Source: Octopus vulgaris
Lineage: Eukaryota
DNA: 64,000 nucleotides
Assembly: GCA_951406725.2 (NCBI GenBank)
Contig: OX597815.1
Location: forward strand, 63,488,001 to 63,552,000
Direction of reading: 5' to 3'
Made by a program: the position numbers and the translations under genes. The notes beneath the pieces are model-generated. The model was not told the origin of the DNA. It did not search any database and worked only from the letters and a program-made list of their open reading frames with translations. Below, in pieces: positions 2,038 through 52,935 of the stretch; position 1 is the stretch's first letter; every line of letters starts with the position of its first letter.

Positions 2038-2919
2038 ATAAGTTGATAATAATTCATTTAGTTTAATGTTGTTCCTTGTAGTAATAAACAGATGTTGATG
2101 TAATAGACATACTAACCTAATACCGCGTTTCTCCTGTTTCCTAGCGATTCCCAGGCAACGTTTGTATTTTTAACGCTGGTGAAACCACCGTACTGAATGC
2201 AACTGCCCAGGTGTGGAAACTATCCCTGATATCCGTTAGGCAGGTAAAGATGAGAATGCATCATTGATATGCTTGTTGTTTGTGAACTTTTTTTATATCT
2301 TAAGATCTCGTTATTCTGAGTTGTCTTCCATTCCTGTAAAGTGGAAAGTATTCGTGAATACGTGATTTGTAGAATTTACTTCTACAAATTGGTTGATTTA
2401 CTTCATAGTTAAATTTTATTAGGCTTAGATAGTGTTTAGATAATAGTCTAGCTTTGGGAGGCTCTGAGGTATATATATATATATATATATATATGTTGTG
2501 CAAGAGGTTGAAATCTTGTCCACACATAGAACAGATGCAACAATCAGACAAATTACGGAAGCTACACACATAATAGAAGATAAACCTAGCCTGAATAGGA
2601 AACTGGAATGGAACACTAGCACACACCACAACTATGACAGAAGAGGATCCCTATAAACTGGTTACAATATAAACAAAACCGAAAACATAATAAATAAAAT
2701 ACACAGATAAATAAACAAATAGAAATAAATAACTATATAGGTTTTTTATCATTTTCTTTTTAATTAAAAACATTTTTTTTTAATGTTTTATTATTATTAT
2801 TATCATTATTATTATTATTATTATTATTTTTATTATTTTTATTGTTATTATTATTATTACTAGTATTGTTGTTATACATACATACATACATACAAGCATA
2901 CGTAATAATAATAATAATG

Positions 2920-3007
<88 letters not shown>

Positions 3008-3243
3008 GTGGATGTAAACATGAACAAAATAAAAAATAAGAATAAACAAAAACAAATTACACGAGCGTATATAAACAGAAAATACAAATATTACAGGCAT
3101 CCCCACACACACACATACACACTACTAAACATAGACACACATAGAGATACACGCATGCGCAAATGAAGACACATACAATAGAATTACAAAATGGCTGACG
3201 GTTAGTAAGGAGATACACAAATAAGAAAGAAGAAAGCAAAGGA

Positions 3244-3283
3244 CCACTGATGCGGTCACAGGAGTGTGACGAAAGAACTCTGG
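3244..3283 (+). ncRNA. Degenerate hammerhead-like motif
   Basis: CCA-CTGATGC-G-GTCAC-aggagt-GTGAC-GAAA-gaac-TC-TGG; stems I and II pair, A9 replaced by C. Confidence 0.4.
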
Positions 3284-3404
3284 CCGAAATAAAATTAAGA
3301 TTAATGTAAAAAATAAATAGCACTGAAGCAAAGTAACACCAAATATATAGTGCGATTGTTTTTATTGCCTAAACTGGCAAAATGACCATTCCGAAATACA
3401 ACAC

Positions 3405-3438
<34 letters not shown>

Positions 3439-3924: not shown

Positions 3925-10488
<6,564 letters not shown>

Positions 10489-43509: not shown

Positions 43510-44499
43510 TTATCAATTTGTTTTGCAAGATTCCTGATGTGAAATCGTGTGTTCAAAAAGATATTGTTGTATTTCGGGATGGTCATTTTATTTATGTATT
43601 TATTTATTTATTTATTTTGCAAAATAAACAGACATGCTACATATTTTTTCTTCACTCGTTTATTATTGTTCTTATTTTATTATTTTAACTCAAAGTCCAT
43701 TGTCCTGAAATCTTTCGTCACACGTCTGTGACCTCTTCAGCAACACTTTTCGTTTTTGCGTGTGTTTTTGCTCCACTACTCTATTCTGTTATTCTAAGAT
43801 GTGCATCGGTTTGTTCGCTTGTGTTTGTGTGTATGTGTGTGTGTCGTGTGTGCGTGTGTGCGTGTGTGTGTATGTGTGTGAGTGTATGCTTCTGTGTGTG
43901 TTATAGTCTTTATCAAAAGTGTGGCCTTCCCCTCAGCCCCATCCTCTCACCCCGTTGTGTTGCTGTTGATCCTAAAACCCGAAAAAAATATAGTTTAGTT
44001 TCTTTATTTCTTTGTGTATGTGTGTTCGCCCATGATATTGCCATGATGGTAGCTGTTGTTATTGCCATCGTTGGCACTGCCGCTGCTACAGACCGTGTTA
44101 GTTACGTTGTTGACATCGTTATGGCCGCCCATGAAGTTTCATTTGTGCGTTTATGTGTGTGTATGGGTTCGCTCCGTATGTATCCATGTCCTCTATATAA
44201 TTTTGTTTATTTATATTTATCTATCTGTGTCTTACATTTATCACAGGTATGTGGCAGATATATTTATATATTTATTTATCGATTTATATATTTTTATTTA
44301 CTTTTTTTATATCTATCTCTGTTTCTCATAAGTGTCACAGATAAGTGCATATATATGTCTATTATGTGTGTATTACTCTGTATGTTTCTGTGTATTATTT
44401 ACTTTTGTTTTTCTTTTTTCCCTTTGCCCTCTCTCTTCACGTCCCTACTGTCTTTAGTCATGTGGGATGGTATGTCATATTTTCTATTAACCTCGGTCA

Positions 44500-44795
44500 G
44501 TCTACTGCTTGTAGCTTGAGTCAGTTTTATGTGTCGATAGTACTTTAACCTCTTAGCATCAATCCAGCCTCCATGTTCTGCGTGAGAATGTTTGTAGAGC
44601 ACTGACGAGCTTTTCCCTTCTTTTAGCTCTCGCCAATGCTCATTTATACGTTCTCCTATGTTGCGTGCAGTCACTTCTATGTAGGTAGTTGTCATGTTTC
44701 TGCATCGTCCCTCAGTACATCGTAAGCTAAACACTACATTCCTAACCTTACAGTTAACCTGTGGGTTCAACCTATATACAACACATATTGATTCG
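44500..44795 (-). mobile_element. Penelope-like GIY-YIG endonuclease remnant
   Basis: CKVRNVVFSLRCTEGRCRNMTTTYIEVTARNIGERINEH...SVLYKHSHAEH resembles PLE C..KNVVY..C..C..YIGET.R.L..R..EH. Confidence 0.75.
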
Positions 44796-44796
44796 A

Positions 44797-44843
<47 letters not shown>

Positions 44844-44958
44844 ATAGAGGGCATTATTACACATAAATGCCTCACACTAGGAGGGACAAAGTCATTACTA
44901 CCAAAATTATACTAATCATACCCAAATGCAGTTTTTCAAAGCAAGACATTTAAAAAAT

Positions 44959-45027
44959 GAATTTAGTTCTGTATCACCGTGATTTCACATTCAACTTACG
45001 TCTAATGATCGTCAGCAGAACTGATTC
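44959..45027 (-). ncRNA. Type I hammerhead ribozyme
   Basis: Reverse complement identical to 51279-51347. Confidence 0.8.
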
Positions 45028-45438
45028 TGAACACATCATAAATAAACTACCAACCTTACGTAGCGAAGACGAACAGACAACTGCTCACTCCGGCCAAGCA
45101 CATGGAATGTTTATAAATCATATATCCGGTAAATGGCGGGCTTTTTACGAACTGCATGTCGGGTAATGAAAAGTATTTCGGAATAAGTTTAACAATTAAG
45201 GATAATCTCTTAATAAGGGATCTTAACAAGAAATTATCGGGTAGCTAGCGTGAAAACCTCATAAAAGAAAAGAATCCGAAAATAATTTTTTTCTTTTGAA
45301 CAAATTAATTATATCTATATTGTATAGAGGGCATTATTACACATAAATGCCTCACACTAGGAGGGACAAAGTCATTACTACCAAAATTATACTAATCATA
45401 CCCAAATGCAGTTTTTCAAAGCAAGACATTTAAAAAAT

Positions 45439-45507
45439 GAATTTAGTTCTGTATCACCGTGATTTCACATTCAACTTACGTCTAATGATCGTCAGCAGAA
45501 CTGATTC
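45439..45507 (-). ncRNA. Type I hammerhead ribozyme
   Basis: Reverse complement identical to 51279-51347. Confidence 0.8.
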
Positions 45508-45658
45508 TGAACACATCATAAATAAACTACCAACCTTACGTAGCGAAGACGAACAGACAACTGCTCACTCCGGCCAAGCACATGGAATGTTTATAAATCA
45601 TATATCCGGTAAATGGCGGGCTTTTTACGAACTGCATGTCGGGTAATGAAAAGTATTT

Positions 45659-45955
45659 GTGAGGCATTTATGTGTAATAATGCCCTCTATACAATATAGA
45701 TATAATTAATTTGTTCAAAAGAAAAAAATTATTTTCGGATTCTTTTCTTTTATGAGGTTTTCACGCTAGCTACCCGATAATTTCTTGTTAAGATCCCTTA
45801 TTAAGAGATTATCCTTAATTGTTAAACTTATTCCGAAATACTTTTCATTACCCGACATGCAGTTCGTAAAAAGCCCGCCATTTACCGGATATATGATTTA
45901 TAAACATTCCATGTGCTTGGCCGGAGTGAGCAGTTGTCTGTTCGTCTTCGCTACG
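45659..45955 (+). repeat. Right arm of 480-bp repeat, part upstream of LINE insertion
   Basis: Inverted relative to left arm; matches 51431-51728 apart from a 1-nt indel. Confidence 0.95.
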
Positions 45956-46229
45956 ATGTTACTTTGTTTGTTAGATGTTGCTTTTTCATCGATGCACTGA
46001 ACTTTGAACGACTGAATACGAGTGCCTGCTTGGTTGGTAAATTGCTGTTGCTTTGTTAATCACTGTTGTTTTGGTGTCTTTTCAATAAGACTGTTAGTGG
46101 CCTTCGTGCGAGGGCTGCGTACTTGGTTCCCCCCCCCCCGCGGGGGAATTATTGTGTGTCATCGTGTGTGAAACACATCCAAAAAAAAAAAAAAAAAAAT
46201 ATTTTTCTACAAACGGCTGCAAAGCCAGA

Positions 46230-47585
46230 ATGTCGTCGGAAGGCGGTGAATGCCAACTGGAAAAAAAACTCGAAATGGAGTCCCCCATTTCTTGTTCACC
46301 AATCTCAGGTGATGAAAGCTCTCAAGCCTCAGGTGAAGAAAGCTCACCGGCGGTGACGCCGGAAAAAGAATCGGCGGTAACGCCAGGAAAAAAGGCCCCA
46401 GCGAAGAAGTTCGCAGAAGTTGTGGGGCGTAAACAAAAAAATATAAATATAGACAATCTAGAAAAATACGAAGCCCTGCTAAAAAAAGAAGGAAATGAGA
46501 TAGCAATAAAAAAAGATGTTGAAAAAAAGGAAGAGATTGAAAAGAAAAGGATTATTTATAAGACATACAGCACGACAACAAAAAGTATACAAAAAGTGGA
46601 AGAGAGTAAAATAGAGGAGTGCCTGAAGGCAATTAGAAAGGATGTCACCTACATAAACAGAGGAAGACGCTTCGGAACGGTAGAAGTGAGGTTCAGGACC
46701 GAAGAAATAGCAAAGAGGCTATCTACCGAACCACAAAAAGCAGGAAACATAGTCCTTCTACCCTTGTACAAAGGAAGAAGGACTTCGAAAATAGTCATGA
46801 GGAATATTCCCCCAGAGGCGGACGCCACATGCCTGGTGGCGGCAGTGATGCTGGGCCTGAAGGAAAAAATCAATATCCTACAAGCTACAGTGGAGGAGGA
46901 GGGTTTTTGGCAGGGCCAGATCATCACAATGGCAATACAAGCGGAGGCCCAGACACTGGAGGAAATACCAGAGGTGCTGAGGCTCGATGAGGAGGAGAGA
47001 GTATTGGTATTTGTAGAAGGAAGAAAGCCGAGGTGCTTCGGCTGCGGGAAAAAGGGACACGTAAGAGCGGAGTGTCAACCTACACCGCAGGTAGAAGCAC
47101 CGTCGGAAAAAGAAGAAGCTGAGAAGGAAAAGAAAACAGAAGAAACCAAAGAGGTAGAAAAAGCATCGAGTGGTGCGGAAAAAGAAAAAGAAAACGAAAA
47201 AGAGGAGGGGTGGTCTAAAGTTACCAAAAAAAAACGGAAAACAGAAACCACCCCTCAAGAAGAAGAAAACCAGAAAAAAAGAAAAGAAGTTACTACTTCA
47301 TTTATGGCCATTAAGGCTACCAACAACAGACTAGTCAATGTGTTGGCAGCCATGGCCAATGTGGAAAGAGTAAGGAGAACAAAAGACTGTATCGTGTACA
47401 AAATAGGCCGGAAGGACTACAGGAGGATAAAATCCGAATTCTTCCACGACGTGGGCCCTCTGAGACTGGACATGTCTCCATATCTATACGAGGGCCTGCG
47501 TCGGACTCCCCCACGAGCCAAGGAAAAAAATAAAAGCGAAGAAGAACAAGGCGAACCAGTCGAACAAGCCAAACTACTGATATAA
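46230..47585 (+). CDS. LINE ORF1 Gag-like protein with zinc knuckle (451 aa)
   Basis: CFGCGKKGHVRAEC CCHC knuckle preceded by VFVEGRKPR, RRM-like segment, W.KV..KKRK basic motif; first in-frame ATG at 46230. Confidence 0.9.
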   Translation: MSSEGGECQLEKKLEMESPISCSPISGDESSQASGEESSPAVTPEKESAVTPGKKAPAKKFAEVVGRKQKNINIDNLEKYEALLKKEGNEIAIKKDVEKKEEIEKKRIIYKTYSTTTKSIQKVEESKIEECLKAIRKDVTYINRGRRFGTVEVRFRTEEIAKRLSTEPQKAGNIVLLPLYKGRRTSKIVMRNIPPEADATCLVAAVMLGLKEKINILQATVEEEGFWQGQIITMAIQAEAQTLEEIPEVLRLDEEERVLVFVEGRKPRCFGCGKKGHVRAECQPTPQVEAPSEKEEAEKEKKTEETKEVEKASSGAEKEKENEKEEGWSKVTKKKRKTETTPQEEENQKKRKEVTTSFMAIKATNNRLVNVLAAMANVERVRRTKDCIVYKIGRKDYRRIKSEFFHDVGPLRLDMSPYLYEGLRRTPPRAKEKNKSEEEQGEPVEQAKLLI

Positions 47586-47593
47586 GGTAAGTG

Positions 47594-50500
47594 ATGGACT
47601 ACATTTATGTTGGTTGTTTAAATGTGCGCGGCCTGGGATCAAGCGGGAAGCAAGGTCGCTTCCTTAATGATATCAGGTCGCGCAATTTGGATGTTATTGT
47701 TGCTACAGAAACCCGGTTAAAGGGGCCAAGAGGTCTACTCCCACTGTTTGACGGCTACGAGAGTTTTTTCTCTCCGGCCAGTCCTACAGGCGGGGGTGGG
47801 GTGTTGGTCCTATTAAAAAGAAACCGGGTTTTTGAGAAAAAGTTAATTTTTTCAGACCCAGAAGGTAGGCTGGTCGTCATGGATTTGACGTTCAGTAACG
47901 GTAAAGTTATCAGACTGGTTGCAATTTACGCACCCAACAGTAAAAAAGGGCAAAGTGATTATTTTCGTGATCTAGAAAACTTTCTCGGTACTTCGCATTC
48001 ATTAGTTGTGCTAGGAGACTTTAACACAATTTGCAAAGCGGATGTAGATTGTGTTGGCTCGAATGCAGATAGAAAAGGTAACTCATGCTTCCTGGAACTG
48101 CTAAGCCGCTTTGAGCTAGCAGATCCTTATAGGTTGGAATTTCCGAACGCTCCATTGTGGACATGGTCAAACAGCGACGGATCTTCCAGGTCATACATAG
48201 ATAGAATTCTAATTAGAAAGGTAGACAGTAAAATAGCTAAGTGTCCACAGTTTTACCCGATCAGCTACAGTGATCATAAAATGGTCACTTGTAAGCTTGA
48301 CATAGATAAGGTTAGAAATAGAGGATCCGGTTACTGGAAACTTAATACGTCCCTTTTGGCGATTAAGGAGTACAGAGACCGGATTAGGACCATAATTCAG
48401 AGGGCGCTGTCTGGTGCCATCATTAATAACAAATGGTGGTACGCCCTCAAACGAGCCATCAAGTTTGAGTCTATTAGATATAGCATAGGAGTAGTGTCTA
48501 GAGAGGCTAGAAGGGAAACTACTCTAGTTAAGGAATTAGAGGAAGCCATGAAAACTGGCTCTGCGGCTCAGGTGGCGTCCAAGAGACTGGTGTTAAACCA
48601 GCACCTCGAGGCCAAACACATGGGCTGCATTGTCAGGGCCAGAATCCGTCATATGGGATGTGAAGGAATCAACGCCGTGAGATGGGCCCGAGTGGTGGAA
48701 GCCCGGAATGGCAACGATGCCACGATTCGATCTTTGAAGAACCAACAAGGTGAGTTGATAGACGAACCCGAGGAGATGTGTGAGGCCTTTCAGGAGCACT
48801 TCGCTCAGCTTTTCGGTGAGTGCGGCGGGCTGGATAGGAGGAGGGCCTTTACGGACCTACTCGACGGGCTGCCGCGCTTATCGGGGCGAGATGCGGAGGG
48901 CTGTGAAGGGCCAATCACGCCTGAGGAGGTGGTGGAGGCAATGGCGGACTGCGGCGCGGGCAAGGCGCCGGGTTTGGATGGTCTACCCTACGAGTTATAT
49001 AAGAGTATGCCAGACTTGTTCGGGCACCTACTGGCGGAGGTCTATGCGAACTGGCAGCAGAACGGGCTTATACCCAGATCTGTGCGCCGGGGAGTGGTGA
49101 CTCTCGTCAGAAAGGACCCGAGCAAGGGGGAGTGCATTGATAATTTCAGGCCCATCACTCTGCTAAACACAGAGTTGAAGATTTTGGCCAAAGTGTTATC
49201 GAAAAGATTGGCGCGTGTCGCGGATGGTCTGATCGGAGAGGCACAGACATGTGCCGTTCCGGGCAGATCCATTCAGGATAATCTCCATCTAATGCGGTAC
49301 ACTATAGAGGGGTTTAATAAAGATTCTGGCAAGGGTGGGGTACTGGTCCATTTAGACCAATCTAAAGCCTTTGATAGGGTCGACCATCGTTACCTGGTAT
49401 CTGCCCTGGCACAGTTCGGGCTGAGCCTTGGCTTCCTCAGGTGGATTATCCAAATTTACGACAACATCGACTCGGTAGTTCGGGTGAACGGCTTCTTGTC
49501 GAAGCCGTTCAAAATCAAACGCTCGGTTCTTCAAGGGTGTCCGCTCTCCCCGCTTTTGTATGTGATGGCTCTTGAGCCATTACTGCGAAAACTGAGCGGC
49601 ATCCCGAGACAGCCAGGTAATGGAAAATCAGTGTCAGCGTACGCGGACGACATCACCATCATCGTGACCGAAATGGACCACCTATGTAAAGTAGGCAAGG
49701 CCATAGAGGTTTACGAGACGGTGACAGGAGCAAAAGTTAATCGCGAAAAGTCAGTCGGCTTGCAACTAGGCACCTGGAGAGGCAAGTCGATGCCTCCTGA
49801 CAGCGTCGTGGGACGTTGGACGGAGGGTCCGATTAAACTGCTAGGGGTCTGGTTCGGTCCAGACCTCCAAATAGAGAAGAATTGGGGCGAGGTAACGAGC
49901 AAGGTGGCTGCAGTAGCCAAGACCTGGTCTTGGCGGTGGCTATCCTTGAAAGGGAGGGCGGAGGTGGCCAATGTGTTTATCGCATCGGTTATCACCTACC
50001 GCCTTTCCGTCGTTCCTTGCCCCGATTCGTGGTTGACCAAGTTGGAAAGACAGCTCTTCTACTTCTTGTGGAAGGGTAGGAAACCACTTGTGAAACGCTC
50101 TACTTGCTGTCAACAACCGTTAAAGGGTGGGCTAGGGATGCCTTGGCTGATGATGCGCAGACATGCGCTGAGGTTAAGACATCTGTGGCTCTACCTGGAT
50201 GGTGAACGGGTGTGGTCTCCGTTAGCAAAACTGATGTTTCCCAAGTTCACTAGTTTCGGTGGACGGGAAACCTGGCCGAATCGTAGATCGAAACTTGGTA
50301 CATGGCATACGGAGTGTCGCAAGGCTCTCCTGCTATTCCGTCGCTCGGGCAACGCCTGCGGTGGGGGTTCCACCACATTCTTCTATAGAGGGTTGGTAGA
50401 GGCGAAATGTGAAGACACCTTGGGGGAAACCCTGGGTCTCGACGATAATCAGCTGGCCAGTCTGTTCCGACGTACGTTCGAGCCGAAGACACTGGACAAC

Positions 50501-50992
50501 TTCCAGAAGTCTCTGGCATGGCAATGCTACAGAGGAGCTCTACCTGTTCGGGATAAACTCGCAAGGCATGGTGGCCAAGACAGTCCGATGTGTCCAAGAT
50601 GCGGGCGGGATAGGGAAACCGTCCTGCACGCTATTGTTCATTGTTCGGTCGTGTCTGAGGTGTGGGTTTATGCCGAACAGCTGTTGTCAAGCACACGAAG
50701 AGTACAGCTGTCGACTGAGTGTATTAAAAAAATTGACCCACCAGATTTCCTCGCGAAAGAAGGTAAGAATTGTTTTCTCGTTGTGGTTGCAATTGCGAAA
50801 GAGGTGATATGGAAGACGAGAATGAAAGGTATACGGTCAGGTAAGTTCATATCCGGCCCTGGGTTGATGAATTACTTCATCTACCACCTGAAAAGGAAGA
50901 TAGGGCTGGAGAGAAAATGCCTGACTAAAAGAGTGTATGAAGAACGATGGAAGGATGTAGCACGGAAGTTGAGAATGGATGACACCACATAA
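47594..50992 (+). CDS. LINE ORF2: APE endonuclease, reverse transcriptase, C-terminal zinc finger (1132 aa)
   Basis: LNVRGL, IYAPN, LGDFN, YIDRIL, SDH (APE); YWKLN; PGLDG, FRPITLLN, LDQSKAFDRV, QGCPLSP, YADD (RT); CPRC..ETVLHAIVHC. Confidence 0.96.
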   Translation: MDYIYVGCLNVRGLGSSGKQGRFLNDIRSRNLDVIVATETRLKGPRGLLPLFDGYESFFSPASPTGGGGVLVLLKRNRVFEKKLIFSDPEGRLVVMDLTFSNGKVIRLVAIYAPNSKKGQSDYFRDLENFLGTSHSLVVLGDFNTICKADVDCVGSNADRKGNSCFLELLSRFELADPYRLEFPNAPLWTWSNSDGSSRSYIDRILIRKVDSKIAKCPQFYPISYSDHKMVTCKLDIDKVRNRGSGYWKLNTSLLAIKEYRDRIRTIIQRALSGAIINNKWWYALKRAIKFESIRYSIGVVSREARRETTLVKELEEAMKTGSAAQVASKRLVLNQHLEAKHMGCIVRARIRHMGCEGINAVRWARVVEARNGNDATIRSLKNQQGELIDEPEEMCEAFQEHFAQLFGECGGLDRRRAFTDLLDGLPRLSGRDAEGCEGPITPEEVVEAMADCGAGKAPGLDGLPYELYKSMPDLFGHLLAEVYANWQQNGLIPRSVRRGVVTLVRKDPSKGECIDNFRPITLLNTELKILAKVLSKRLARVADGLIGEAQTCAVPGRSIQDNLHLMRYTIEGFNKDSGKGGVLVHLDQSKAFDRVDHRYLVSALAQFGLSLGFLRWIIQIYDNIDSVVRVNGFLSKPFKIKRSVLQGCPLSPLLYVMALEPLLRKLSGIPRQPGNGKSVSAYADDITIIVTEMDHLCKVGKAIEVYETVTGAKVNREKSVGLQLGTWRGKSMPPDSVVGRWTEGPIKLLGVWFGPDLQIEKNWGEVTSKVAAVAKTWSWRWLSLKGRAEVANVFIASVITYRLSVVPCPDSWLTKLERQLFYFLWKGRKPLVKRSTCCQQPLKGGLGMPWLMMRRHALRLRHLWLYLDGERVWSPLAKLMFPKFTSFGGRETWPNRRSKLGTWHTECRKALLLFRRSGNACGGGSTTFFYRGLVEAKCEDTLGETLGLDDNQLASLFRRTFEPKTLDNFQKSLAWQCYRGALPVRDKLARHGGQDSPMCPRCGRDRETVLHAIVHCSVVSEVWVYAEQLLSSTRRVQLSTECIKKIDPPDFLAKEGKNCFLVVVAIAKEVIWKTRMKGIRSGKFISGPGLMNYFIYHLKRKIGLERKCLTKRVYEERWKDVARKLRMDDTT

Positions 50993-51278
50993 ATGTAAAT
51001 CAGAACGAAACCAAAAGTATCAGTGGTGAGGCGGGGCTCGTGGGGTCCGAGCTGAACCCGCCCCCACTCCACCTGTAATGTCTTCCGGTCTGTTTTTTCA
51101 TTCGATTTTATAATTTTTGCATTTTTGTGAATTTTTTGAATTTTTAATCTCATCCTTTTTGTAACCCCATCCGAGAATCTGACCCCACATCAGGTTGTAT
51201 TGTCCCCTCCTTGTTGGCCCCTTGTGGGTAATAATAAAACAGCTACGTAAGGTTGGTAGTTTATTTATGATGTGTTCA

Positions 51279-51347
51279 GAATCAGTTCTGCTGACGATCA
51301 TTAGACGTAAGTTGAATGTGAAATCACGGTGATACAGAACTAAATTC
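51279..51347 (+). ncRNA. Type I hammerhead ribozyme
   Basis: Stem I AGTTCTG/CAGAACT (extended GAAT/ATTC), core CTGACGA 51291-51297, stem II CATT-A-GAC-GTAA-GTT-G-AATG with GNRA loop, GAAA 51320-51323, stem III ATCAC-G-GTGAT, cleavage triplet AUA (after 51334); atypical U-U at base of stem II. Confidence 0.82.
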
Positions 51348-51759
51348 ATTTTTTAAATGTCTTGCTTTGAAAAACTGCATTTGGGTATGATTAGTATAAT
51401 TTTGGTAGTAATGACTTTGTCCCTCCTAGTGTGAGGCATTTATGTGTAATAATGCCCTCTATACAATATAGATATAATTAATTTGTTCAAAAGAAAAAAA
51501 TTATTTTCGGATTCTTTTCTTTTATGAGGTTTTCACGCTAGCTACCCGATAATTTCTTGTTAAGATCCCTTATTAAGAGATTATCCTTAATTGTTAAACT
51601 TATTCCGAAATACTTTTCATTACCCGACATGCAGTTCGTAAAAAGCCCGCCATTTACCGGATATATGATTTATAAACATTCCATGTGCTTGGCCGGAGGT
51701 GAGCAGTTGTCTGTTCGTCTTCGCTACGTAAGGTTGGTAGTTTATTTATGATGTGTTCA

Positions 51760-51828
51760 GAATCAGTTCTGCTGACGATCATTAGACGTAAGTTGAATGT
51801 GAAATCACGGTGATACAGAACTAAATTC
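51760..51828 (+). ncRNA. Type I hammerhead ribozyme
   Basis: Identical to 51279-51347. Confidence 0.8.
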
Positions 51829-52199
51829 ATTTTTTAAATGTCTTGCTTTGAAAAACTGCATTTGGGTATGATTAGTATAATTTTGGTAGTAATGACTTTG
51901 TCCCTCCTAGTGTGAGGCATTTATGTGTAATAATGCCCTCTATACAATATAGATATAATTAATTTGTTCAAAAGAAAAAAATTATTTTCGGATTCTTTTC
52001 TTTTATGAGGTTTTCACGCTAGCTACCCGATAATTTCTTGTTAAGATCCCTTATTAAGAGATTATCCTTAATTGTTAAACTTATATATATATATATATAT
52101 ACATGCTCGAATCAAGTGGTCCTGGTCCATTTTGGACATTACTCTGATTATGCCAGCTTTCGAAGAATCTTTGGTGTTATGGGCGTGTTCATTGACCTC

Positions 52200-52935
52200 T
52201 CTTTCAACAATGCTCCACATGTAATAGTCTAATGGATTGAGACCTGTGTAATTAGGACATCAAATGTTATGTGATCATGAAAATTTCCAGCATGTTTGAT
52301 AGTGCAGAGTCTTACTGAGACACATGTGATCTTCCATTGCATACACTGCTTATATAGGGCTTAACAATTACTTCCAGAACCTCAATGTAGGCAGCAGAGT
52401 TAAGTCTAAGGCCTTGTAGAAAGAAGTAAGGATGCACCACATGTCCTTTATTACTGACAATCCCTAAAACCATTATAGTTGCAACAAATTTTGGATGCAT
52501 AACACTTGGAACTTCAGAAGGGTCTGCCCATAACCATTTAGCATTTCTTCTGTTAACTCTTTGATCTTGGTCAAAGTTCTTCTCGTTTGAGAAAAAACTA
52601 AATCAAATCTTCTGCTTGATTTTTCAGTTTGTTTAAGACCCTTTTAGATCTGATGTAGTGATTTATTTTCTTTCGTTTTTCTGACAAATTGACCTTTCCT
52701 CATCATATGACTTATATTTTTATATCTGATGTCTTCGTGGACAACATTTCTGACTGTTCCTTCTGACACATGGAGATCTGTTGCAATTGACCTCGTGGAC
52801 ATTTCTGGGATTCTAATCAAGGGTCTGTTGAACTTACTGGCTAAATTCAGGTGCTCTGATGATTTCAGAGCATTTAGAATGTTTTTTATACTTTGATATT
52901 GGTGATAATCCACTCACAGCTCTTTGGGACATATG
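52200..52935 (-). mobile_element. Tc1/mariner (maT/DD37D-like) transposase remnant
   Basis: HPKFVATIMVLGIVSNKGHVVHPYFFLQGLRLNSAAYIEVLEVIVKPYI and HTH-like SIATDLHVSEGTVRNVVHEDI. Confidence 0.75.

What the first reader, a model, noticed from the sequence alone, without database searches (positions are those of the whole stretch)
44799..52101. Array geometry suggests twin-primed, rolling-circle reverse transcription into (TA)n
Seen: two arms diverge from a junction at 45658/45659, with the hammerhead sense pointing outward in both. They span ~1.7 and ~2.4 units (LINE excluded), start and stop at unrelated registers of the unit, and both outer ends merge into (TA)n through short TA-rich microhomology (tatat|tgtatag and aaacttat|atata). 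Inference: both strands of a cut (TA)n primed cDNA on a circular or multimeric RNA, so this is one retro-insertion rather than a satellite grown by unequal crossover.
Basis: partly seen in the sequence, partly recalled or inferred. Interest (0 to 1): 0.75.

Follow-up and report, generated by a model that had tools for sequence, protein, structure and literature searches.

The report
Retrozyme pasted by Penelope two-site priming
This is one young copy of a non-coding 480-base jumping repeat with a predicted self-cutting RNA motif; its back-to-back arms end at two fixed points, almost always one of each, as in a Penelope-like retrotransposon of the same genome, which likely copies such RNA into both strands of a cut TA repeat.

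Summary
The geometry is real: two diverging arms (1.71 and 2.36 units of a 480-bp type I hammerhead repeat), a junction at 45658/45659, (TA)n at both ends, and a later L1/Tx1-type LINE inside. One claim is wrong: the outer ends are not random registers. They are family-fixed, site A (unit 356) and site B (unit 223). Of 25 divergent insertions in 38 loci, 22 pair A with B, 3 have one odd end, and none pairs A-A or B-B. Only the inner 5' ends vary. A young autonomous Penelope-like element (PLE) in this genome shows the same rule (17 of 17 scorable) and similar end motifs. Arms and units of a locus share private variants (up to 13 of 13 units), which favours one retro-insertion over a crossover-grown satellite. 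Two-site priming is likely; fold-back priming may explain some junctions; a circular template is only modestly favoured. Junction and empty allele could not be confirmed in public contigs; expression and cleavage are untested. Retrozymes and PLE inverted/tail ends are known, and this scan noted the same pattern earlier in other repeat families of this genome.

The parts
44799..44840 (.). Left (AT)21 tract; its last 5 nt are shared with the unit's B end
44836..45658 (-). Left arm, 1.71 units; variable 5' end at unit 361, fixed 3' end B at unit 223 (…ATACAATAT|TA repeat)
45658..45659 (.). Head-to-head (5'-to-5') inversion junction with 1-nt microhomology
45659..45955 (+). Right arm, part before the LINE (unit 184-480)
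45956..51242 (+). Later insertion: full-length two-ORF L1/Tx1-type LINE (ORF1 about 46209-47585, weak zinc-knuckle hit; ORF2 about 47594-50992 with AP endonuclease, RT, zf-RVT); 5-bp target duplication CTACG at 45951-45955 and 51243-51247
   Evidence: the Tx1 label is recalled, not tested by a tree
51243..52084 (+). Right arm, part after the LINE; fixed 3' end A at unit 356 (…GTTAAACTTAT|TA repeat)
51285..51340 (+). Type I hammerhead motif (unit 38-93), predicted cut after unit 87 (51334); U-U at the first pair of stem II
51766..51821 (+). Second hammerhead copy of the right arm
45446..45501 (-). Hammerhead copy, left arm, inner
44966..45021 (-). Hammerhead copy, left arm, outer
51548..51584 (+). 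Stable RNA hairpin just upstream of site A, within the 133-nt B-to-A 'tail' (one copy given)
   Evidence: -16.5 kcal/mol, z -4.9, 0 of 200 shuffles as good
52082..52101 (.). Right (TA)10 tract; first 3 nt shared with the A end
44788..44800 (+). 13-nt inverted copy of 52103-52115, joined to an older PLE endonuclease remnant (about 44054-44790, minus strand) through TTG microhomology
52100..52907 (-). Right flank: truncated transposase remnant of an old dispersed family (mariner type by recalled motifs); intact relatives have no (TA)n at this point

Best explanation
This is a single insertion of a non-coding hammerhead retrozyme, likely made in trans by a Penelope-like RT/GIY-YIG protein that would nick both strands of a TA repeat and prime cDNA at two fixed internal sites of one RNA species, one strand at site A (unit 356) and the other at site B (unit 223). 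Each cDNA would run a variable distance through a circular or uncleaved multimeric RNA, and the two 3' ends would be joined by microhomology or a template jump, giving a head-to-head array. An L1/Tx1-type LINE inserted later. Shown: geometry, fixed ends, A+B pairing, shared haplotype of the arms, the same rule in an autonomous PLE. Inferred: the enzyme and which PLE family, order of steps, circular template (about 0.55), ribozyme activity.
For: Fixed, paired ends: of 38 insertions picked by unit similarity alone, 25 are divergent (22 A+B, 3 with one odd end, 0 A-A or B-B) and 13 are single-armed (10 A, 2 B, 1 other). Pattern lists for contigs C1-C8 (60 A, 98 B): 23 of 23 divergent neighbours are A+B (overlaps the first set). 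62 of 63 outer ends run into TA. Autonomous PLE (1312-aa ORF, RT plus C-terminal GIY-YIG with a CX4CxxC linker, copies mostly 98-100% alike): 17 of 17 scorable head-to-head insertions of 20 fetched pair its two ends, with motifs TTAAACGTA and ACAATAT against TTAAACTTA and ACAATAT here, and ribozyme-to-B distance 127 against 136 nt. One template per locus: substitutions per site 0.0024 within an arm, 0.0039 between arms, 0.0142 between loci; 8 locus-private variants fixed in all covering units, 6 of them on both arms. 8 of 41 A+B loci cannot come from fold-back of one cDNA (one of the 8 is ambiguous). Junction microhomology averages 2.8 nt against 0.75 expected (30 junctions without insert). 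In vitro a PLE protein cuts and extends both strands and starts at two internal sites that bound the tail (PMC11167929). For a circle: 0 of 154 passes through the ribozyme cut site carry an indel; 5' ends of 54 long arms are uniform round the unit (KS p 0.59).
Against: 17 of 41 A+B loci have both 5' ends within 15 nt of each other (2.6 expected), which fits fold-back self-priming at least as well. The retrozyme shows no alignment to that PLE's terminal repeat beyond the end motifs (z about 0), so the partner is not identified. 8 private variants are carried by some but not all units of a locus, which a monomeric circle does not predict. In PMC11167929 both strands used the same start sites without a stated preference, and uncleaved RNA was the main template. 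The window's two flanks are not collinear (PLE remnant on the left, transposase remnant on the right), so a simple intact (TA)n target is not shown here. Loci were the best-scoring ones, biased to young and long copies.
Confidence: 0.7

Rival explanations
1. Fold-back (self-priming): one target strand primes one cDNA at A or B; its 3' end folds back and copies itself, and the copy is joined to the other target strand at the other site.
For: 17 of 41 loci have near-tied 5' ends (p 2e-10); 33 of 41, the window included, are geometrically compatible; palindromic junctions led to a self-priming proposal for PLEs (PMC3846280, passages).
Against: 8 of 41 loci are incompatible. It does not explain why copying back never stops at the site it started from (0 A-A or B-B in 25). 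Both sites are RT start sites in vitro for another PLE.
Confidence: 0.2
2. Same two-site priming, but the template is only a linear, uncleaved read-through transcript of an existing array (or cleaved monomers chained by template jumps); no RNA circle is used. This rivals the template step only.
For: Hammerhead cleavage is dispensable and uncleaved RNA is the main substrate in vitro. This subfamily has a U-U pair at the base of stem II, which may weaken cleavage. Partly shared variants inside arrays. In loci shorter than one unit, 5' ends pile up just 3' of the cut site (12 of 33 at 85-150 against 2 at 22-84), a sign of some linear cleaved templates.
Against: Private variants fixed across all units and both arms (13 of 13 in L054) need a monomer bottleneck followed by re-multimerisation; template jumps at cleaved ends would be expected to leave scars (0 of 154).
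Confidence: 0.4
3. A satellite grown in place by unequal crossover or slippage, later inverted by DNA recombination.
For: Proposed in general for retrozyme arrays (bioRxiv 10.64898/2026.07.22.740005, Discussion); long homogeneous arrays exist (L054); partial variants could reflect some later exchange.
Against: Hundreds of dispersed loci (131 and 222 exact end matches) with the same two ends, TA flanks, variable 5' truncation and strict pairing; many inverted loci are shorter than one unit.
Confidence: 0.05
4. The junction or the array is an assembly artefact.
For: No listed public contig bridges the junction; one other locus (L120) looks like a consensus mosaic.
Against: Junction positions differ at each of 44 two-arm loci, carry microhomology and locus-private variants, and the same form recurs in the autonomous PLE.
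Confidence: 0.03

Closest known systems
Metazoan non-LTR retrozymes (Cervera and de la Pena 2020, PMC7229834: abstract, passages and Discussion read; Li, Clavereau and Pollet 2026, bioRxiv 10.64898/2026.07.22.740005: parts 1-3 of 5 read)
   Same: Non-coding, low-GC (34%) tandem unit with one type I hammerhead per unit; dispersed mono- to multimers; PLEs proposed as the mobiliser and circles as templates.
   Different: Unit 480 bp, slightly above the 150-450 bp of the 2020 paper and inside the 51-972 bp of the 2026 preprint. In what I read, neither describes fixed paired ends, inverted arms or (TA)n targets ('inverted' occurs 0 times in the 2020 main text). Supplements were not seen and may bear on this.
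Endonuclease-bearing PLE insertions (Craig et al. 2021, PMC8557442; Arkhipova et al. 2013, PMC3846280; passages read)
   Same: 5' truncation, partial tandems, an inverted 5'-truncated copy, a tail at one end only, (TA)n bias for clades with the cysteine linker; non-autonomous multicopy Chlamys elements exist.
   Different: No ORF; tail 133 nt instead of 30-40 (56 nt in the local PLE); no similarity to an autonomous element beyond the end motifs; the strict one-A-one-B count is not given in the passages read.
Poseidon_Ac in vitro TPRT (Frangieh et al. 2024, PMC11167929, parts 1-2 of 4 read)
   Same: Both strands nicked and extended; two internal start sites downstream of the hammerhead that bound the tail; AT-rich targets; predicted dimer.
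   Different: There the start sites are not homologous to the cut DNA and no strand-site pairing was reported; here 3-5 nt of TA microhomology and obligate A+B pairing.
L1 twin priming (recalled, no paper read)
   Same: Two target strands prime on RNA, giving an inversion joined by microhomology.
   Different: In L1 the two pieces abut on one RNA and the second site is variable; here both sites are fixed and the arms overlap freely (2 of 41 abut).

Membership tests
Metazoan non-LTR retrozyme | Type I hammerhead in each tandem unit | tested here: met
   Core CUGANGA/GAAA/UH kept with position 7 free; 96% of cells paired, 5 of 17 pairs with compensatory change across 13 hand-picked variants. Rfam at gathering score found 0 and the MFE fold does not give the motif.
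Metazoan non-LTR retrozyme | Short low-GC non-coding tandem unit, no LTR structure | tested here: met
   480 bp, GC 0.34, longest Met-ORF 69 aa; PBS and PPT were not searched for
Metazoan non-LTR retrozyme | Dispersed multicopy insertions | tested here: met
   207 matches from 40 of 1631 candidates; 131 and 222 exact end matches
Metazoan non-LTR retrozyme | Self-cleavage and expression as linear and circular RNA | not testable with these tools
   No RNA holder on record; contigs cannot show ends or circles
Non-autonomous PLE-mobilised element | Head-to-head inverted, 5'-truncated arms with a tail at one end | tested here: met
Non-autonomous PLE-mobilised element | Microsatellite (TA)n target | tested here: met
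   62 of 63 outer ends; in 1 locus (L047) the flanks are collinear halves of a repeat whose relatives carry a TA-rich tract there
Non-autonomous PLE-mobilised element | 3' similarity to an autonomous PLE terminal repeat | tested here: inconclusive
   End motifs and spacing match one young PLE family; no wider homology; other PLE families were not surveyed
Autonomous PLE | RT plus GIY-YIG ORF | tested here: not met
   No such ORF in the unit; PLE ORF matches near family loci are separate insertions
L1-type twin-primed inversion | Non-inverted piece starts at the second priming site | tested here: not met
   2 of 41

The most novel reading that the evidence does not exclude
A PLE protein dimer engages one retrozyme RNA circle at two fixed sites, one per target strand, and both enzymes roll round it until they stall or collide, one jumping onto the other's cDNA end. 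This would explain in one step the obligate A+B pairing, the tail, the tied 5' ends and the uniform arrays, and would make animal ribozyme satellites direct rolling-circle products recognised by a few bases and RNA shape rather than by homology to the PLE.
Probability: 0.35. Interest if true: 0.75.

Novelty: new member of a known kind. Interest (0 to 1): 0.5.

Why it matters
Two open questions meet here: what mobilises animal retrozymes, and how PLE inverted and tailed insertions form (named as unresolved in PMC8557442 and the 2026 preprint). This family gives a counted footprint (one A and one B end per inversion, one haplotype per locus) and a candidate intact enzyme in the same genome with matching end motifs, so both questions can be tested with a 480-nt RNA, a TA target and one protein. 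The element class itself is known, and the scan has noted the same footprint in other families of this genome.

Tried and rejected
Rfam at gathering score: no match. Single-sequence folds of the hammerhead and of site B: not better than shuffles. First pair count used misnumbered helices II and III; only helix I was valid; redone. Search for an autonomous parent with a homologous terminal repeat: none among 32 PLE loci or beside 92 family loci; not exhaustive. L120 looked like a PLE-retrozyme intermediate but is a single-copy fine mosaic, probably a consensus artefact; not used as evidence. Pile-up of 5' ends at the ribozyme cut site in long arms: absent (3 of 54). Junction in public runs: no bridging piece listed. 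Empty allele: no cover at 44798-44812 and the loose ends belong to paralogues, so no conclusion. No RNA holder listed. Flank collinearity as an empty-site proxy worked for 1 of 75 loci. The PLE protein had no Pfam or PDB match and its 10 homologues bear no useful names, so 'Neptune-type' rests on the linker motif only. Rows left out of the end counts: L050 (cut by LINE and gap), L035b (old fragment), L120, L121, L134 (mosaic or divergent). Seven paper searches found no report of strict A+B pairing or of retrozyme insertion footprints; subscription papers and supplements were not seen.

Full report
Anatomy. The region holds a 480-bp unit (GC 0.34, no ORF above 69 aa) in two diverging arms. With unit position 1 at window 51248, the left arm (minus strand, 44836-45658) runs from unit 361 to 223 and the right arm from 183 to 356, interrupted by a two-ORF LINE (45956-51242; RT, AP endonuclease and zf-RVT hits) with a 5-bp target duplication. 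The arms are 1.71 and 2.36 units and 99.7-100% identical. The junction has 1 nt of overlap. Both outer ends run into TA tracts and share 5 and 3 nt with them.

Ribozyme. Rfam gives no match at gathering score and the lowest-energy fold misses the motif. Across 13 hand-picked variants from three subfamilies the core is kept with only position 7 free, 96% of cells pair and 5 of 17 pairs change on both sides (relatedness inflates this). It is a type I hammerhead by structure; activity is untested, and this subfamily has a U-U pair at the base of stem II.

The outer ends are fixed. In 38 insertions chosen by unit similarity (37 fetched plus the window), 25 are divergent: 22 have one arm ending at A (349-365) and one at B (221-230), 3 have one odd end, none is A-A or B-B; 13 are single arms (10 A, 2 B, 1 other). 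In 37 further loci chosen by end pattern: 19 A+B, 2 A plus other, 8 single A, 8 single B. Exact end patterns occur 131 (A) and 222 (B) times; on C1-C8, 23 of 23 divergent neighbours are A+B and one same-strand B-B pair exists (this set overlaps the others). 62 of 63 outer ends enter TA. Inner 5' ends of long arms are uniform round the unit.

A candidate enzyme. The GIY-YIG remnant in the left flank led to a young autonomous PLE (period 4598 bp, 1312-aa ORF, RT then a CX4CxxC linker and GIY-YIG). Of 20 loci fetched, 17 could be scored and all 17 pair its two ends, 56 nt apart. Its end motifs (TTAAACGTA; ACAATAT) resemble the retrozyme's (TTAAACTTA; ACAATAT), and a variant hammerhead-like motif lies 127 nt before B against 136 here. 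Beyond this there is no homology, and other PLE families were not surveyed, so it is a candidate and not the proven partner. A second subfamily, 79% identical, keeps both ends at the same positions.

One template per locus. Substitutions per site are 0.0024 within arms, 0.0039 between arms of a locus and 0.0142 between loci; 8 private variants are fixed in all covering units, 6 on both arms, one in 13 of 13 units; 8 other private variants are in only some units. This fits a single event from one RNA haplotype. The window's own haplotype is common (27% of other loci are as close), so here this test is weak.

Two primers or fold-back. 8 of 41 A+B loci have arms that each extend beyond the other's span, which fold-back cannot give (one ambiguous); but 17 of 41 have tied 5' ends against 2.6 expected. 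Ties fit fold-back, a shared RNA end, or two enzymes meeting on one template. The absence of same-site pairs and the in vitro result that a PLE extends both strands from two internal sites (PMC11167929) favour two-site priming. It is not L1-type twin priming (2 of 41 abut). Junctions carry excess microhomology (mean 2.8 against 0.75 nt in 30 without insert; 14 of 44 have inserted bases).

Circle or linear multimer. For a circle: variants fixed across whole arrays, no scar in 154 passes through the cut site, no 5' pile-up there in long arms. For linear templates: short loci show a step at the cut site (12 against 2 of 33; the region is also palindromic), partly shared variants, and uncleaved RNA as the in vitro template. 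I put the circle at about 0.55 for long arrays, with cleaved linear monomers likely behind many short inserts.

The target here is not simple. The right flank is a transposase remnant cut where intact relatives have no TA tract; the left flank is an older PLE remnant followed by a 13-nt inverted copy of the right flank. Either an older repair event left a hairpin with a TA loop that was then targeted, or this insertion deleted DNA. Public contigs did not decide this or confirm the junction.

Known and new. The element is a new member of the metazoan non-LTR retrozymes (PMC7229834; 2026 preprint), and its geometry is the known PLE inverted-plus-tail form (PMC8557442; PMC3846280). PLE mobilisation of retrozymes has been proposed from co-occurrence and terminal-repeat homology. 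In seven searches I found no count of obligate A+B pairing and no insertion-footprint evidence for retrozymes; supplements were not seen. Earlier notes of this scan report the same footprint for 355-, 360-, 490-, 495- and 596-bp units in this genome (unchecked notes; no sequence look-alike for this unit). Verdict: real, mechanistically informative, known kind; interest 0.5.

Noticed in passing
window 45956-51242; L192/L050, L197, L198, L049: The LINE prefers this retrozyme: 4 of its 25 best 3' ends lie in the unit at positions 455-476, two at the identical site (476), and L049 holds a 32-nt LINE 3' piece at about the same place; many other copies sit in tandem with LINE 5' ends.
   Followed up: partly
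L120:5000-5405 (G000:C1:13338500-13338905): Single-copy fine mosaic that switches every 5-25 nt between the PLE terminal repeat and the retrozyme, hammerheads in register, with a PLE A end on the left and a retrozyme B end on the right; probably a consensus artefact of two alleles, but a true template-switch product is not excluded.
   Followed up: partly
L080:2278-6213 minus: Young, abundant autonomous PLE with an Asn-rich insert, no Pfam match, and a hammerhead-like motif with C in place of A9.
   Followed up: partly
L166-L180: Second retrozyme subfamily (about 79% identical, 3888 first-look candidates) with a canonical G-C at the base of stem II and the same A and B ends.
   Followed up: partly
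window 44788-44800 and 52103-52115: Perfect 13-bp inverted repeat outside the two TA tracts; native to the right flank and copied into the left.
   Followed up: partly
L036 (G000:C16:47864733-47868337): Two independent A+B insertions of different haplotypes about 630 bp apart in one TA-rich stretch; L140 and L059 lie next to copies of the autonomous PLE.
   Followed up: no
window 2503-3407 and 7639-10487: A further 5'-truncated copy related to the autonomous PLE (73-86%), and a 2.85-kb (AAT)n tract.
   Followed up: no
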